In this document: positions 18,001-27,000 of the stretch, piece by piece
Layout: the number at the start of each line of letters is the position of its first letter
Position numbering within the stretch: the first letter of the stretch is position 1
Assembly: GCA_000002445.1 (NCBI GenBank)
Contig: CM000208.1
Location: 3,328,001 to 3,392,000, forward strand
DNA length: 64,000 nucleotides
Direction of reading: 5' to 3'
Source of the DNA: Trypanosoma brucei
Taxonomy: Eukaryota
Position numbers: made by a program

Positions 18001-21000
18001 ACGCCACAGCCACATTTAGAAAATGTGATAGCAACTTTGAAAATACGGAACCGAACCCTGATATTTTTTTTAAAAAAAAAGGAATAATAATAAAACTACC
18101 AGAAAAACGCTTGTTTTTCTAAATCGACCAAATCTGGGTCGACTTCTCGCACAACAATCATTTCACCGTCTTCGGATAACCTAGAAACAGCAATTTTAAT
18201 GTTCTCTTCATCGGTATTCTGGAATTTCAAAAGTCTCTCCTGTTCCCGCCTAAGTTTCTCCTCCCTTTCCTTTTGCTTTTTTTCTTCCAAGTCTCTCAGA
18301 TATTTAAGCCTCGCTTCCTCTCTCTGTTTAGCCTCCTCCTCGAGTTTTCGCAATTCCGCAAGCCTTTCATTTTTCTCCTCTGTGTCATCAATGAGCAGAG
18401 TAAGTCCGACAACAGTTTTCCGCTTCGTGGTAGTGGAAACAAAACCAAACAATGCAGTCATGTTGCCTTCGCGAGTTCTCATAAGTGCAATGTGAGAGGT
18501 TGTCAAGCAAGGTAGCTCATTATCGCACCCCAAAGTAAAATTGTCCGGTATCTGGCTTGCATTTGTCACATTCTTGTACAAATCTACAAGTGAAACAGAC
18601 TTCACCTTCGGCTTCCCCTCCACTAACCCTGCCAATTCCAACAAACCGGATTTATTAGTGATACCGCTTTCAATGGAAATACCATTTCCAACAGCGAGCG
18701 CTGCAGGTCTACTCTCTGTGTCCACGTAGTGTACGGAACCCCACCATCTGCCTTGATACCCGGAGGAAACGACGTAATGGTGACTTGAGTTATAAGTCGA
18801 TACCATCAACCTGTTCCGACCCCTCAACATGAGTTCCGCGTTATCGAGGGGATCTAAGGGTATCTTGCTTCGAACACTCCATATATATCCATCATCTGAC
18901 TGAAACAACACGTGAACCAAGGAGGTGTTTCTTTTCACGACAGCATTCATTAAATAGATTTGGTCATCAGTTAGGAAAAGGGTGTTTCCTCTGAACTCGA
19001 TATCTGTCACTTCCTCCCCAGGTATGTAAGAAAACGTCATTGTTGTGTTTTCTTCGTTTTCTAAAAGCGAAACATTTCCCTTGTATGACACAACTGTTAT
19101 GTTGATTACATTCTGACTTACGTTATCAACTTTTAAGGGACAGTGCAAAGTGCCTCCAACAACGACACCTCGATGAGCACAAAAAGGGTATTTCGTTTGC
19201 TGGACCGAGAAACTTTTACCACCATCAAAAGTGCATACCGCTGTGAGTTGGTGCTTACACTCGGCGCACGGCTCCTGATAGGCCTGAGCACAGATTACAC
19301 CCTCCTGTAGCGTGACAGCACCCGATGGCATCCATAAGCCATTTCCTGTGCTAAGGTGGGTCACATTTAGAGGCAAAACCTCAAATGATTGCGACTCGGT
19401 AGCCATCAGCAGGAAAGCTAAAAGAAGAAAAGTGAGGCTGAGCATTTCCTTTAACTACGCTTATTATGATTGGATTCTAATGCTCCTCTTCAGCCCGTGC
19501 ACCTCGAAGAAGCTACTGCAGCTTTTTTTTTAAAAAAAAAGAGAGAGTACAAATAAAACAGTGAGCACTGATTCCAGTAAGCAAAACCATTTGTTAAGGT
19601 CCAACAACGCCAAGCCCGTACGGAACATCACCGAAAGAGGAGCACTACCAACAGCATATATACGCACACATATATATGCGTGTTTCCGAAAAACAAAAAA
19701 AGAGAGCAAGAGCCGTATGTACCGCAATAAATAAAACCCGACTCGTAATGTCTGTACCTCCTAACACCTTTGCAAATTGGTCATCTTAATAGAAACATAC
19801 GGGTATTCGTATTGCAGGGACCCGTCTTCCACAGAAGAAGTGTTTGAAAAAGGAACACTCAAATCAGGGTACAGCTGTGATATTTTCTTTCTTATTTCTG
19901 CTTCCTTTCTCTTGTCAACCTGTAGGAATATCGATATGCATCGTGGAGGCAGCCCATATTTCAATAAACTTTCCACAAAAAGTCTCACCGCCTTTAGGTG
20001 AACCCAAGCAACATAGCAACCAGTGTACCTTTGACGAAGTACCAAGCCGAAATTTTTCTTCTCGCTTTCGGCTCTTTTAATAAAATCGTTTAGATCCCTT
20101 ATCGACGGTTCGTCGGCTGCATCCGAATCTCGTACAATATACCTCCTCTTCCGGCACGCCAGCTTCACATCCTCCAACACTCGACGAAAGACGACGATGC
20201 TGTTTAGCACAAACTCGCTATCCTCTGCAATGATACAGTTCGAATCGGGGCAAACGAAATCGTTGAGGGACCAATATTCATTTAGCCACTCTCTCTTCGA
20301 ACTTAAGGGCACTGCGACGAAGAGGTTAGTGAGCAATTCAGTATCAACAATGAAGGGATGGCTCCGGTTTTTCATAGTCACCAGTTCCCTAATAGGTTTG
20401 ACCGAGAGATTGCCCTGAGCTTTTCTTGTCACAGTAGTTAATTTGTTCCGCGTTTCATTATACTTCGTCATCACCAGACGAACACCTTCCTCGGTTGTTG
20501 CGAAATAATTTGCAAACTTTTCCACCAGGCCCAAAATACTTTCATTGCTGTCAAACTGTGCTGAACTCCACTGAAACCCTTTGACGAATGCTGCTGGGGT
20601 CATCTCCTGTGTTTGGTTGAATCGTAAGGTCGCAACGACATCACGTGGCTCTTCACATATCTCTTGCATTATCGTAATCTGCTTTTCCAAGCTGTTCTCC
20701 ACCTGTAAATCCAGTTTTGCCAGCTCGTCACTTGCTTCAATGAGAGAGTCAAGTGTTCCTACCTTAAAGTTCGGGACAGCGAATGAACAAACGTCCTTTC
20801 CCGCAGCCCCAAGGAGGGATACGAGGTTTTTGTATTGAAACGCGAAGGAGTCCGCTCCTGTCGGAAGGAAAGGAAGCCCCAAAAGGAGAAAGTGCTCCGA
20901 CATTTTACACTGCTCCACCCCTATGCTTACCTAGAAATAAAGAACCGTAGTGTGTTTTCCAAACAGGAGTAGAAGGCGGCGAGCACTGACACACGAAAAA

Positions 21001-24000: not shown

Positions 24001-27000
24001 TGTCGTCCTTTTAGGCGCCGGCCTTGCGACCACACCCTCAAACGTTGCTCCGCGTTGTGCTTGTGCGCGTTTCGGTGACCTTGGTGGTCGTGATCTAAAC
24101 AAAAGTGTACAATAAGAGTAAATTCTGGCGTATGTTGAGTGTGCCGCTTCCAGCGCCTTTTTCATGCACTCTGGTGACGTTTTCCACCGCATCGGGAGTG
24201 GGATGCGCAATGAAGGTGGCAACGGTGGAAAGCGCTGCGAAGAGGATTGGGGTAGAGGAAGTGCCAGAGGGATACGACGAAGGAATAAGAAAATGAGGCT
24301 CTGCTTAGTTCAAGAAACGGACCCGACATGGGATGAAAAGTGTACAAGTGGTGGCGGGATAAAGGAACACGGGAACGCCGAAGATGACGGGCTGCACAGG
24401 GAAGGGAGGAGCAGATGGTGGGGAAACCGCATGAACTTACCACCCTTCAATTTTCACAGCCACGTGGCGGGCTCCGGTGGGGTTGGGAGGGGCAAGGGGG
24501 ATGGGGAATAAATATCGCAGAATTACCGCACCCCTCGTCCTGGATGAATCCGGTTCCTTGGCCACGTTGGAACGTTGAACCGAATAGACCGTGTAAACTG
24601 CGCGCCATCAGGCGGCTCGAGGCTACAGCACTTTCAAACACAGCGAAAGTGGCGATCCCGAAGCAGACAAGGGATTTGTTCTGCAAGGAATAAAAGGAAT
24701 TCCACACCTCGTTACACAAAGTGGCGTCTCCACCTTCCACACCCGGGGAAAGTAACTTTGGGGCGCCGGAGCATCACTGCTTTTGCGCTGCCTCAGTTCC
24801 ACCCGCTTTCTCACAACGTCTCCGTGGTAAACATATTTCGTAACCCGCTATCCCTGCTGATGCTCACAGCTGCATCGGCCTCCAAAGGATGGAGGTTGGA
24901 ATGGGCTGTTGTAAACTCTCCTCCGCCTGTAGGGTCCCAAATTCGGAAAGATTGAAGTCTCAGTGGTCTGACCCAACGTAATATCTGCATATGCCCCCCT
25001 TCGGTGATTTAGCGGCACATTGGGTAGGAGAGACTGATTGGACGACTACAAGCTCCAGCCAACGAATTCGATTGGATTTGGTGGCCGTAAGGGCTCTAAT
25101 TGCCTGGAACAATTGCTTTAGAGAGCTTTTTGGGAAAATGCCTCCCTAACCCCAACGACATCAAACTACGCACGGGGAGGGGGAAACTATTTACGGCGAA
25201 AGCGGGCTCGAGAGTCACTGGCTTTGCGAATAGCAGTTCACACCTGCCCTGCGGATGTGCATGATTTGGTGGGAAAGGTGGAAAGTTGGAAATGCTGCCA
25301 CTATGCGGTTCGAGGGTCAGGAGGATCCGCTGTCATATGATCAAGTGATGTGTCTGAGAAGGAGGGAGAAGGGGAAGGGGATGCCAGAAAGGCCGATTCG
25401 CCGCGGCCCACGCGCTGCAACATGAGAACTCTTTGCTCAAACAGCGTGGGACCCGCAGTGAGAAAGTATGGTGGGAGGGTGGGCTTTGGTTTTTCCAACT
25501 TCCTGCGAAGAGATCGACCGTTACAACTTTGTGTCAATCCATCTGGTGCCGACCTACTCTTATTAACATTTCCGCCGTTTCGGTTTGTCCTCACTACTTC
25601 TGATGAGAGAACAACCGCAAAGGGCATTGACTACGCTCCAAATGAAAGATAATTAAAAAAGAGAGCACAGGGAGAATGAAATGCAGCGACGGGCACTGTG
25701 CGGAACAACCGCCACTGCCGCATTCGTACCAATATATGCGTAATTTGAGCAATGCTACTCCAGTGGAAGGATGAAGGGAGGGGAGAAGGTTTGTTCCCCA
25801 CCACCTCCACCGGTCCGTTACTCAAACACAACGTCCCGAGGACAGCTATGTTTGAAAGTAAGAAAATGTCGATAAATGGGGTTAGATGGATCTTAACAAC
25901 ACATAAAGAAATAAATTACGGGGGAATAGGAACTGGAGCATTAGTCCCAGCCAAATACCCCCATATCGTCACCCATTTCCTTCATCCCCCGCAGTACTTC
26001 TCATACCCGAGGTGGAATGAGTGACTCGGAGGGGCCGAGATACTTCACCCCACACCCGACAGGGGACTGCAGTAACATCTCAAACGGCTTCTTCGGGTGG
26101 TCAATCAGCTTCTTATATTCGTCGGGAAGCGATACAACCTTGACTTTCTCAAGTAACTCGCGGTCTCCGAAGAAAAACTTCTCGAATGGTGTTGGGAAGT
26201 GCTCCATGAGCATAGCCACGGCTTCAGGAAGGTCCTCCTTAAGAACAAACAAGAAACAGTTCGCCCCGGCATCGAAGGTGTAAGCCAGTGCTGTGCGGCC
26301 CTTCTTCGCATTGTAGGCTTTCACGAGGCGGATCATCGCGTAGCTGTCCTCCGTCGCATACGTAATCTTCGGTTCGGTGGTCGCGCATATCTCCTGCAGG
26401 TCGTCCGATTCAAGCATTGCAATCTCTGCAAAGGTTGCGAAATCCCTCGCCTTTATAGCTCTCGAGGCAATTTTCATGCGCTCCGGTACAGTTTCTGAGA
26501 TGCGCTTCTTCATCAAAGGCGACGTTTTGAGGGACTGCTGCATGCCCTTGGTGCTGGAGACATCCTTCTGTGCCCCTTTAAGGACAGCGCACATCACCTG
26601 TATCTCGGGCCAATGCGTTTCGTCAACAAATTGTGTGGCCACACAGTCGCTACCATCAGGTTTCTCCCCCTTGTTCCATATAACGAAACCCCCAAAGGCA
26701 CTGCGGCAGGCGCTGCCAGATCCAAGGCGAGCAAGCATTGAGACGTTAGTGGTGGACTTGAAAGCACGGATGAGCGCCGCCGACATGGCGCAGTAGCCGC
26801 TAGCGGAAGAGGCCATCCCAGCGGCAGTTGGGAAGTTGTTCTCCGATACGATGTTCACCTTTTTGTTTTTCAGGTCTTCGGGGCATGTGCTCCTGAGATG
26901 AAGGAGCATCGACTGGACCCGTGGAGTCTTTCCCACATCAACCTCGGTGCCGTTCAGTCGCAACGTGTCTGTCTCGATGTCGTCCCTGAGTTCCACGGAG

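What the first reader, a model, noticed from the sequence alone, without database searches (positions are those of the whole stretch)
20904..26000. About 5 kb GC-rich ORF desert embedded in a co-directional gene cluster
Flanking genes (V-ATPase subunit C below, MVD above) are both on the minus strand, so this is not a strand-switch region. For 5.1 kb there is no ORF over 181 aa in any frame, even though GC is visibly higher than in the surrounding DNA and should lengthen random ORFs. Short ORFs tile all six frames and translate to Pro/Arg/Gly-rich low complexity. The sense (minus) strand is G/A-rich in long stretches, for example 22080-22260. Candidate explanations, none of which I can confirm:
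(a) a degenerate retroposon relic (DIRE/ingi-like) fixed inside the unit
(b) an internal head-to-tail transcription termination and re-initiation zone with a dispersed GT/G-rich promoter
(c) a long non-coding RNA or an exceptionally long MVD 3'UTR
(d) a decayed gene
Gene-ID spacing in the reference (10 per gene) would allow two or three annotated entries here that I cannot see as ORFs.
Basis: partly seen in the sequence, partly recalled or inferred. Interest (0 to 1): 0.6.

Follow-up and report, generated by a model that had tools for sequence, protein, structure and literature searches.

The report
Trypanosome transcription stop-and-restart zone
The 5 kb gene-free, GC-rich stretch in Trypanosoma brucei chromosome 10 is a non-coding boundary where RNA polymerase II ends one long multi-gene transcription unit and starts the next on the same strand; published mutant data already list it as such a site, so it is real but known.

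Summary
Window 20904-26000 (T. brucei TREU927 chr10, between V-ATPase C Tb927.10.14040 and MVD Tb927.10.14070) has no ORF longer than chance predicts. It has the highest GC of any inter-gene segment in the window (54%). It shows no codon-frame signal, no Pfam or Rfam match, no tRNA and no repeats.

- Schulz et al. 2016 place a Bdf3-defined head-to-tail site directly after the 74-aa ORF Tb927.10.14060 (23099-23323).
- That ORF is almost silent: TPM 0.1-0.5, against 9 for MVD and 203 for V-ATPase C.
- It rises about 12-fold without base J and H3.V, and about 14-fold on PNUTS knock-down.
- RNA reappears at the 14050 ORF (TPM about 21).

The sequence is bipartite. The MVD-side half is rich in sense-strand C-runs. 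The V-ATPase-side half is rich in sense-strand G-runs.

Synteny explains the origin. In T. theileri, T. cruzi and Leptomonas, V-ATPase C is the first gene at a divergent strand-switch region. In T. vivax and T. theileri, MVD is the last gene at a convergent one. T. brucei fused these two ends.

I found no retroposon hallmarks.

The parts
26001..27149 (-). MVD (diphosphomevalonate decarboxylase, Tb927.10.14070). Last conserved gene of the upstream transcription unit.
   Evidence: 100% identical to the TREU927 protein EAN78778. In T. vivax and T. theileri it is the last gene before a convergent strand switch.
23369..26000 (-). MVD-proximal half: MVD 3'UTR plus the inferred Pol II termination zone. 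Rich in sense-strand C-runs. Part of a segmental duplication covering 23369-31052.
   Evidence: Sense-strand CCC runs are 18-22 per kb, against at most 14 elsewhere in the window. The sharp duplication boundary at 23369 comes from comparison with T. b. gambiense L006. Termination somewhere here is inferred from the near-silent ORF just downstream and its de-repression in termination mutants. The exact position is not mapped.
24469..24505 (+). Cluster of canonical G-quadruplex motifs on the plus strand, which is the template strand for minus-strand transcription.
   Evidence: Regex scan. It is one of only two plus-strand sites with a canonical G4 motif in 64 kb (the other is at about 33940). 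Any role is speculative.
23099..23323 (-). 74-aa annotated ORF Tb927.10.14060 (EAN78777). It acts as a natural reporter of the silent gap between the two units and is probably not a real protein gene.
   Evidence: TPM 0.12/0.11/0.49, rising to 2.7/3.8/4.3 on PNUTS RNAi, log2FC 3.84. FPKM 0.42 rising to 5.26 in J-null H3.V-null cells, Q 0.0033, with the 3' head-to-tail site 226 bp from its start. Labelled 'T. brucei spp.-specific'.
21604..23098 (-). Head-to-tail strand-switch-type interval: the non-divergent transcription start region for the V-ATPase C unit. Rich in sense-strand G-runs.
   Evidence: Schulz 2016 define HT sites as Bdf3-bound regions inside a unit. The site begins one base after the 14060 ORF, since 226 = 225 + 1. 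Sense GGG runs are 24 and 29 per kb in 21001-23000, against 12.9 +/- 4 elsewhere (maximum 22). Sense G is 0.35.
21211..21603 (-). 130-aa annotated ORF Tb927.10.14050 (EAN78776). RNA is present again here. It is probably leader or 5' non-coding RNA of the restarted unit rather than a gene.
   Evidence: TPM about 21, and about 26 after PNUTS RNAi. It has no homologues outside the T. brucei group by its annotation label, no codon-frame signal and no Pfam hit.
20904..21210 (-). T-rich polypyrimidine region and 5'UTR upstream of the V-ATPase C start codon. Presumed trans-splice acceptor region.
   Evidence: Sense-strand T is 0.39 and GC 0.44, and the sequence was read directly. No substitutions against T. 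b. gambiense in 397 bp. The splice site itself is not mapped.
19761..20903 (-). V-ATPase subunit C (Tb927.10.14040). First conserved gene of the downstream unit.
   Evidence: Pfam V-ATPase_C, E 7.6e-94. ID from PMC5790291. It is the first gene at a divergent strand switch opposite a CFAP74-like gene in T. theileri, T. cruzi and Leptomonas.

Best explanation
The region is a head-to-tail boundary between two RNA polymerase II polycistronic transcription units on the same strand.

Proposed sequence of events:
1. Polymerase arriving from AQP-PK-SSNA1-MFS-RRM-MVD passes the MVD 3'UTR.
2. It terminates in the MVD-proximal half (about 26000 down to 23400; sense-strand C-run-rich). Termination depends on base J, histone H3.V and the PNUTS/PP1 complex.
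3. The middle of the region, around the 74-aa ORF Tb927.10.14060, is therefore almost RNA-free.
4. Transcription restarts in the V-ATPase-proximal half (about 23100 down to 21300; sense-strand G-run-rich; Bdf3-bound start-region chromatin).
5. The new unit's first real mRNA, V-ATPase C, is trans-spliced at the T-rich tract at 20904-21300.

Shown: co-directional flanks; non-coding character; the published head-to-tail call; the RNA trough, its recovery, and its filling-in in termination mutants; the bipartite strand composition; the ancestral positions of both flanking genes.

Inferred: the exact termination and start points; that the C-run and G-run asymmetry contributes to function; that the boundary was inherited from the ancestral convergent and divergent strand-switch regions when the T. 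brucei lineage rearranged this locus.
For: Published boundary call.
- Schulz et al. 2016 S6 Table lists Tb927.10.14060 with its 3' head-to-tail site 226 bp from the gene start. HT sites there are Bdf3-bound regions inside a unit.
- Sense FPKM rises from 0.42 to 5.26 in J-null H3.V-null cells, Q 0.0033.
- I checked that the table's 5'/3' convention is strand-aware, using the minus-strand EP/PAG genes. All short HT distances are 3n+1, so the HT interval starts right after the listed ORF.

RNA levels.
- Kieft et al. 2020 S4 Table (Lister 427) gives TPM: MFS 109, RRM 8.9, MVD 9.2, 14060 ORF 0.1-0.5, 14050 ORF 21, V-ATPase C 203.
- The 14060 ORF is the only gene of this neighbourhood more than 3-fold up on PNUTS RNAi (log2FC 3.84).
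- The Lister 427 coordinates map to the window at a constant offset, so the 5.1 kb gap is the same in an independent long-read assembly.

Non-coding character. ORFs are at chance length. There is no frame signal and no Pfam, Rfam, tRNA or repeat match. Substitutions against T. b. gambiense are 6.1/kb, versus 2.2/kb in flanking CDS (p 5.6e-4).

Composition. It switches near 23000 from sense C-runs to sense G-runs. Each density is the highest in the 64 kb window.

Synteny.
- V-ATPase C is the first gene at a divergent strand switch opposite a CFAP74-like gene in T. theileri, T. cruzi and Leptomonas.
- MVD is the last gene at a convergent strand switch facing SSNA1-SRP19-PK in T. vivax and T. theileri.
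- In T. theileri the two genes lie about 111 kb apart on the same strand of one contig.
- GC islands sit in those ancestral strand-switch regions. The T. theileri divergent region has GC 0.60 and sense G 0.40 against a 0.37 background. The T. cruzi one has 0.58 against 0.41.
Against: - I could not view the ChIP-seq or 5'-triphosphate RNA tracks. The start-region call rests on one published table that assigns the HT interval by gene boundaries, not on peak coordinates.
- MVD and RRM TPM (about 9) may be depressed by multi-mapping, because these genes are duplicated. The size of the 'trough' relative to MVD is therefore uncertain. The 14060 ORF itself lies 46 bp outside the duplicated part, so its low value is not a mapping artefact.
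- Steady-state poly(A)+ RNA does not distinguish termination from rapid decay.
- The downstream half is G-rich but not uniformly GT-rich, unlike the synthetic promoters of Wedel et al. 2017.
- The T. theileri MVD/SSNA1 junction contains a 147-N assembly gap. T. vivax supports the same adjacency without gaps.
Confidence: 0.85

Rival explanations
1. The DNA is the relic of an ingi/L1Tc-type retroposon (a DIRE) fixed at a synteny break. It could also have been co-opted as the boundary, so this rival concerns origin and does not exclude the best explanation.
For: - GC of 54% and a size of about 4.5-5 kb resemble ingi (5.2 kb by my recollection; 52.3% GC), RIME (53.8%) and TbDIRE (48.7%), against 41% for the genome. 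Strand-switch regions are the most retroposon-rich compartment (Bringaud 2007).
- The locus is a synteny break.
- At the orthologous T. cruzi site, retroelement ORFs (a weak RVT_1 hit, and RNase_H) and GP63 fragments follow MVD.
Against: - No RVT_1, endonuclease or RNase H match in any of six frames at E <= 1.
- No Pr77/79-bp signature: best local score 11, against 11.8 +/- 1.1 for shuffled queries. [quoted passage not shown]
- No A-rich tail, target-site duplication or internal repeat.
- No tblastx similarity to the T. cruzi retroelement ORFs.
- No residual frame signal.
- The TREU927 ID series leaves no unassigned entry for an annotated DIRE.
- I had no ingi or DIRE protein or consensus to search with. 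My six-frame protein search failed its own positive control, so a very old, truncated element is not excluded.
Confidence: 0.1
2. The whole region is simply an unusually long MVD 3'UTR or a stable long non-coding RNA inside one continuous transcription unit, with no termination or re-initiation.
For: - Flanking genes are co-directional.
- Several polypyrimidine-AG candidates and C/T-rich tracts occur in 23400-26000.
- RNA is detected over the 14050 ORF (TPM about 21).
Against: - RNA over 23099-23323 is 0.1-0.5 TPM, about 40-fold below MVD and about 1000-fold below V-ATPase C. It rises 12- to 14-fold specifically in termination mutants.
- A head-to-tail site is annotated there from Bdf3 binding.
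- There is no Rfam family.
- Substitutions against T. b. gambiense are as dense as in the other intergenic segments, so there is no sign of a conserved RNA.
Confidence: 0.04
3. The region is a decayed protein-coding gene, or the annotated 130-aa and 74-aa ORFs are real T. brucei-specific genes.
For: - GC is at coding level.
- The two ORFs are annotated and conserved at 90% identity or more in T. b. gambiense and T. equiperdum.
- The 14050 ORF has RNA at TPM about 21.
Against: - ORF lengths equal the random expectation.
- No codon-usage frame contrast, unlike every flanking gene.
- No Pfam hit.
- No similarity to any gene next to MVD or V-ATPase C in T. vivax, T. cruzi, T. theileri or L. major.
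- Substitution density is 2.8-fold that of CDS.
- Conservation within the T. brucei group is uninformative at about 0.5% divergence.
Confidence: 0.04

Closest known systems
Head-to-tail (non-divergent) transcription start regions of T. brucei Pol II polycistronic units (Siegel 2009 by recollection; Wedel 2017, 57 non-divergent TSRs; Schulz 2016 HT sites)
   Same: - Co-directional flanking genes and a gene-free interval of several kb.
- A Bdf3-defined HT call at this very locus.
- A G-rich sense strand on the initiating side.
- RNA returns downstream of the site.
   Different: Nothing essential differs: this locus is already one of the catalogued sites. What I add is its origin, the junction of an ancestral convergent and an ancestral divergent strand-switch region. 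I also add its clear two-part C-run to G-run composition. No tRNA gene is present, although by my recollection internal start sites often lie next to tRNA genes.
Base J / H3.V / PNUTS-PP1-dependent Pol II termination sites with silent downstream ORFs (for example the Tb927.5.3990 locus; Schulz 2016, Kieft 2020)
   Same: A small 'hypothetical' ORF lies just downstream of the terminator. It is near-silent in wild type and is de-repressed 12- to 14-fold when J plus H3.V or PNUTS is removed.
   Different: Here termination is followed within about 1.5 kb by re-initiation on the same strand, rather than by a convergent unit or a chromosome-internal silent array. Presence of base J or H3.V at this site was not seen directly.
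DIRE / ingi / RIME retroposons of trypanosomatids
   Same: GC content, approximate length, and a location at a synteny break and unit boundary.
   Different: It lacks the 79-bp signature, RT, endonuclease and RNase H remnants, a poly(A) tail and target-site duplications.
Strand-switch regions at the orthologous positions in other trypanosomatids
   Same: - The same flanking genes.
- Short GC-rich islands in the T. theileri and T. cruzi divergent regions.
- A G-rich patch on the V-ATPase C sense strand in T. theileri and Leptomonas.
   Different: - Those regions are 0.75-2.1 kb and separate units on opposite strands. In T. brucei the two boundaries are fused, co-directional and 5.1 kb long.
- There is no detectable sequence similarity at the MVD-side loci (L001-L004, L010-L012). 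The V-ATPase-side divergent regions (L013, L014, L016) were never compared with the T. brucei region.

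Membership tests
T. brucei head-to-tail PTU boundary (internal terminator plus non-divergent start region) | Flanking genes are on the same strand and the interval is non-coding | tested here: met
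   Both flanks are on the minus strand. ORFs are at chance length, and there is no frame signal or domain hit.
T. brucei head-to-tail PTU boundary (internal terminator plus non-divergent start region) | Start-region chromatin (Bdf3, H4K10ac, H2A.Z) inside a directional gene cluster | tested here: met
   Met only through a published table, not raw tracks. Schulz 2016 S6 gives a 3' HT site 226 bp from the start of Tb927.10.14060, with HT defined as a Bdf3-bound region inside a unit.
T. brucei head-to-tail PTU boundary (internal terminator plus non-divergent start region) | Drop of steady-state RNA before the site and recovery after it | tested here: met
   TPM: MVD 9.2, 14060 ORF 0.1-0.5, 14050 ORF 21, V-ATPase C 203.
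T. brucei head-to-tail PTU boundary (internal terminator plus non-divergent start region) | Read-through and de-repression when termination factors are removed | tested here: met
   The 14060 ORF rises 12.5-fold in J-null H3.V-null cells and by log2FC 3.84 on PNUTS RNAi.
T. brucei head-to-tail PTU boundary (internal terminator plus non-divergent start region) | GT-rich or G-run-rich sense strand in the start region | tested here: inconclusive
   G-run density is the highest in the window for 21001-23000. However, G+T is high only in 21001-22000 (0.577, tied with other bins), and 22001-23000 is G+A-rich.
T. brucei head-to-tail PTU boundary (internal terminator plus non-divergent start region) | Mapped primary-transcript 5' ends; base J, H3.V or H4.V peaks at the terminator | not testable with these tools
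   No access to the sequencing tracks.
ingi/L1Tc-related retroposon (DIRE) | Remnants of endonuclease, reverse transcriptase or RNase H coding sequence | tested here: not met
   Six-frame Pfam scan at E <= 1 gave only a DUF5661 hit at E 0.25. There is no tblastx hit to the retroelement ORFs at the T. cruzi locus.
ingi/L1Tc-related retroposon (DIRE) | 79-bp (Pr77) 5' signature | tested here: not met
   Best local alignment score is 11, against 11.8 +/- 1.1 for shuffled queries. The Pr77 sequence was taken from PMC1874656.
ingi/L1Tc-related retroposon (DIRE) | 3' A-rich tail and about 12-bp target-site duplication | tested here: not met
   No direct repeats of 16 nt or more and no tandem or A-rich arrays. 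The sequence was also read directly.
ingi/L1Tc-related retroposon (DIRE) | Dispersed related copies elsewhere in the genome | not testable with these tools
   Only chr10 fragments could be fetched. The one extra copy of 23369-26000 belongs to a segmental duplication that includes three genes. The six-frame protein search failed its positive control.
Protein-coding gene or pseudogene | ORF longer than chance, codon-frame signal, homologues, purifying selection | tested here: not met
Structured RNA gene cluster (snoRNA, rRNA, tRNA) | Match to a known RNA family, or a tandem array | tested here: not met
   Rfam at gathering threshold over the whole window: 0 matches. ARAGORN: 0. TRF: only two trivial micro-repeats.

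The most novel reading that the evidence does not exclude
When the T. brucei lineage rearranged this locus, the terminator of an ancestral convergent strand-switch region and the promoter half of an ancestral divergent strand-switch region were carried with their genes. They kept working after being joined on one strand. The lineage-specific 4.5 kb of GC-rich DNA is then an expansion of the short GC islands seen at those sites in other species. Its switch from sense-strand C-runs (with template-strand G4 motifs) to sense-strand G-runs would itself be the signal that stops and restarts Pol II. The second copy of the MVD flank, in front of the CFAP74-like gene (the other half of the old divergent region), would be a sister boundary made the same way.
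Probability: 0.3. Interest if true: 0.5.

Novelty: already known. Interest (0 to 1): 0.27.

Why it matters
In itself this is a catalogued example of a known feature. About 57 non-divergent start regions are described in T. brucei, and this locus already appears in a published head-to-tail list.

Its modest value is as a clean natural case with three useful properties:
- Both halves of the boundary can be traced to ancestral strand-switch regions.
- A built-in silent reporter ORF (Tb927.10.14060) reads out termination.
- The sequence separates neatly into a C-run half and a G-run half.

That makes it a convenient locus for dissecting which DNA features stop and start Pol II in trypanosomes, a question that remains only partly answered. 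It also warns annotators that Tb927.10.14050 and Tb927.10.14060 are probably not genes.

Tried and rejected
1. Exact look-ups of V-ATPase C and MVD for TREU927 contigs found nothing. TREU927 DNA could not be fetched beyond the window.

2. Six-frame Pfam, Rfam, tRNA, TRF and repeat searches were all empty.

3. A three-frame (minus-strand) concatenated query to the 5.8-billion-protein search returned nothing. It also failed to return the identical annotated 130-aa and 74-aa ORFs known to be in that collection. I treat it as uninformative, not as a negative.

I ran no further search on a single spurious ORF.

5. blastn and tblastx of the region against T. vivax, T. cruzi, T. theileri and L. major flanks, and against the rest of the window, gave only noise.

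6. An apparent 15.6-kb tandem duplication in T. b. equiperdum IVM-t1 was retracted. Its junction is a 100-N scaffold gap.

7. I could not reconstruct the exact series of inversions and duplications.
- T. b. gambiense DAL972 places the PK-AQP block next to the other copy of the MVD block, unlike TREU927 and Lister 427.
- One DAL972 flank ends in a scaffold gap.

8. Supplement searches for these gene IDs in Reynolds 2016, Kim 2021 and the SPARC paper found nothing. A search for old-style Tb10.61 IDs found no paper.

9. A bacterial-type promoter and terminator scan was not run, because it is irrelevant to trypanosomes.

Full report
**What the window is.** MVD and V-ATPase subunit C from the window are each 100% identical to the proteins of Trypanosoma brucei brucei TREU927, on a 4,054,025-bp record, which is chromosome 10. 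All long ORFs of this part of the window are on the minus strand:
- aconitase 10149-12854
- TBCC 14822-16240
- two unknowns, 16559-17845 and 18099-19445
- V-ATPase C 19761-20903
- MVD 26001-27149
- an RRM protein 27355-28491
- an MFS transporter 28790-30370
- small genes including SSNA1 and SRP19
- pyruvate kinase 35142-36641
- two aquaporins further on

Published IDs fix V-ATPase C as Tb927.10.14040 and the transporter as Tb927.10.14090.

- Between 20904 and 26000 the longest ORF is 181 aa. The longest stop-free stretch is 193 codons. That is what sequence of this composition gives by chance: 186 +/- 37 in 300 simulations.
- GC is 0.540. This is higher than every other inter-ORF segment of the window (0.307-0.498) and as high as the GC-richest genes.
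- A codon-usage log-odds scan separates the true frame from the others in every flanking gene. In the region all six frames are equally poor.
- Six-frame Pfam scans, Rfam over the whole window, ARAGORN, TRF and a repeat search found nothing.
- Two tiny annotated ORFs lie inside: 130 aa at 21211-21603 (EAN78776) and 74 aa at 23099-23323 (EAN78777, Tb10.61.2800). Both are labelled T. brucei-specific. Their accessions run consecutively between V-ATPase C (EAN78775) and MVD (EAN78778), so they are Tb927.10.14050 and Tb927.10.14060.

**What it is: direct published evidence.** Schulz et al. [quoted passage not shown]
- Their S6 Table lists Tb927.10.14060 with its 3' head-to-tail site 226 bp from the gene start, which is one base past this 225-nt ORF.
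- Sense RNA rises from FPKM 0.42 to 5.26 in cells lacking base J and H3.V, Q 0.0033.
- I checked the table's convention. For the minus-strand EP/PAG genes the 5' distance falls as the ID rises, so 5' and 3' are relative to transcription. All short HT distances are 3n+1, so the HT interval begins right after the listed ORF.

Kieft et al. 2020 (PMC7055916) give RNA-seq for Lister 427 on its long-read assembly.
- The genes map to the window at a constant offset of 3,399,853, so the same 5.1 kb gap exists there.
- TPM values run: MFS 109, RRM 8.9, MVD 9.2, the 14060 ORF 0.12/0.11/0.49, the 14050 ORF about 21, V-ATPase C about 203.
- After PNUTS knock-down, which impairs Pol II termination, the 14060 ORF rises to 2.7-4.3 TPM (log2FC 3.84). 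It is the only gene of the neighbourhood on the more-than-3-fold list.
- The ORF lies 46 bp outside the duplicated segment described below, so its low signal is not a mapping artefact.

A third study lists it among genes up in a procyclic-like drug-resistant line.

Together these show that RNA falls to near zero downstream of MVD. The silence depends on the termination machinery. Start-region chromatin follows immediately, and RNA returns before V-ATPase C.

**Anatomy.** The region has two halves with opposite strand composition.
- From MVD down to about 23000, the sense strand is C-rich. It has 18-22 CCC runs per kb, against at most 14 anywhere else in the window. It also carries a cluster of canonical G4 motifs on the template strand at about 24469-24505.
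- From about 23000 to 21300, the sense strand is G-rich. G is 0.35, and there are 24 and 29 GGG runs per kb, against 12.9 +/- 4 elsewhere.
- The last 400 bp before the V-ATPase C start codon are T-rich (sense T 0.39), as expected for a trans-splicing polypyrimidine tract. They show no substitution against T. b. gambiense.
- Overall the region has 6.1 substitutions per kb against T. b. gambiense, compared with 2.2 per kb in flanking coding sequence (p 5.6e-4). That matches other intergenic DNA.

**Where it came from.**
- In T. theileri, T. cruzi and Leptomonas pyrrhocoris, V-ATPase C is the first gene of a unit. It diverges from a CFAP74-like gene across only 0.75-2.1 kb. The same genes follow it as in T. 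brucei, as far as each locus reaches: two unknown-function genes, then TBCC, and aconitase in the two trypanosomes.
- In T. vivax and T. theileri, MVD is the last gene of a unit (MFS, RRM, MVD). It converges on SSNA1-SRP19-PK across 1.3-1.4 kb. The T. theileri junction contains an assembly gap; the T. vivax one does not.
- In T. theileri the two genes are about 111 kb apart on the same strand of one contig.
- In T. brucei the order is PK, SRP19, SSNA1, MFS, RRM, MVD, the 5 kb, then V-ATPase C, all on one strand.

The 5 kb therefore sits exactly where an ancestral unit end was joined to an ancestral unit start. The ancestral strand-switch regions carry short GC islands:
- The T. theileri divergent region has GC 0.60 and sense G 0.40, in a 0.37 background.
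- The T. cruzi divergent region has GC 0.58 in a 0.41 background.
- Leptomonas has a G-rich patch.

There is no detectable sequence similarity to the T. brucei region at the MVD-side loci of T. vivax, T. cruzi, T. theileri and L. major. I did not compare the region with the V-ATPase-side divergent regions. That the boundary function was inherited through the rearrangement is my inference.

**A segmental duplication crosses the region.** Window 23369-31052 (2.6 kb of MVD 3' flank plus MVD, RRM and MFS) has a second copy in T. b. gambiense. That copy lies upstream of the CFAP74-like gene, the other half of the ancestral divergent region. It is separated from that gene by 2.9 kb of unrelated but also GC-rich DNA.
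- The copies differ at 22 of 5185 and 33 of 2195 positions, so they are distinct.
- The break at 23369 is sharp.
- TREU927 also has a second MVD protein, EAN78728.

The region is therefore a composite. The MVD-side half travels with MVD. The V-ATPase-side half (20904-23368) is unique to this junction.

I could not reconstruct the full rearrangement history. DAL972 places the PK-aquaporin block beside the other copy. One DAL972 flank ends in a scaffold gap. An apparent tandem duplication in the IVM-t1 assembly proved to be a join across 100 Ns.

**Rivals.**
- Retroposon relic. This is the most serious alternative for the origin of the DNA. Ingi, RIME and DIRE are 49-54% GC in a 41% genome and are concentrated at strand-switch regions. 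T. cruzi has retroelement ORFs right after MVD. However, there are no RT, endonuclease or RNase H remnants. There is no 79-bp Pr77 signature (score 11, against 11.8 +/- 1.1 for shuffles). There is no A-tail or target-site duplication, and no similarity to the T. cruzi elements. I had no ingi or DIRE consensus, and my broad protein search failed its positive control, so an ancient truncated element is not excluded.
- One continuous MVD 3'UTR or lncRNA. The RNA trough and the mutant data contradict this.
- Decayed or real gene. Nothing beyond GC content supports this.

**Verdict.** It is a known kind of element, and this very locus is already in a published head-to-tail list. The additions here are its evolutionary origin, its two-part composition, and the likely non-gene status of Tb927.10.14050 and Tb927.10.14060.

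Noticed in passing
window 23369-31052; L006 9206-16887; L005 9206-16830: A segmental duplication of the MVD 3' flank plus MVD, RRM protein and MFS transporter. The second copy in T. b. gambiense lies upstream of the CFAP74-like gene. The copies are 99.56% and 98.4% identical. TREU927 also has a second MVD protein (EAN78728).
   Followed up: partly
L015 (T. b. gambiense FN554973.1 3198052-3219551) versus window 30371-44214: DAL972 places AQP-AQP-479aa-PK-PK-SSNA1 next to the copy that leads to the CFAP74-like gene. TREU927 and Lister 427 have that block next to the copy that leads to V-ATPase C. DAL972 also has two tandem pyruvate kinase genes where the window has one. This is either a real strain difference or a reference-guided misassembly. 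L005 has a 100-N gap 640 bp beyond its divergence point.
   Followed up: partly
L008 10605-10704: The apparent 15.6-kb tandem duplication in T. b. equiperdum IVM-t1 (window 21001 joined to 36672) spans a 100-N scaffold gap. It is probably two overlapping contigs, not biology.
   Followed up: yes
L002 11143-19692; L003 11666-20844: In T. cruzi, MVD is followed by retroelement ORFs (a 1020-aa ORF with a weak RVT_1 hit, and 384-aa ORFs with RNase_H) and by leishmanolysin (GP63) fragments. The same position is therefore a synteny break there too.
   Followed up: partly
window 24469-24505 (+): Overlapping canonical G-quadruplex motifs on the strand that templates minus-strand transcription, inside the presumed termination half. 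Only one other plus-strand canonical G4 occurs in the 64 kb (about 33940).
   Followed up: no
window 62444-64000: The last 1.56 kb of the window is only 30.7% GC, far below every other segment. Its nature is unknown.
   Followed up: no
window 30371-35144: The second large 'gap' between long ORFs is not a desert. It holds a 139-aa ORF (30645-31064), SSNA1 (within 32158-32745) and SRP19 (33398-33856), matching the small genes called in T. b. gambiense, T. vivax and T. theileri.
   Followed up: partly
L006 6316-9205: The 2.9 kb between the duplicated MVD flank and the CFAP74-like gene in T. b. gambiense is also ORF-poor and 50-56% GC. It may be a sister head-to-tail boundary.
   Followed up: no
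(tool behaviour): A 4834-aa X-masked translation of the three minus-strand frames, submitted to the search for homologous proteins, returned no hit. It missed even the identical 130-aa and 74-aa proteins that the listing of cluster members shows are in the collection. Long masked queries appear to be unreliable there.
   Followed up: no
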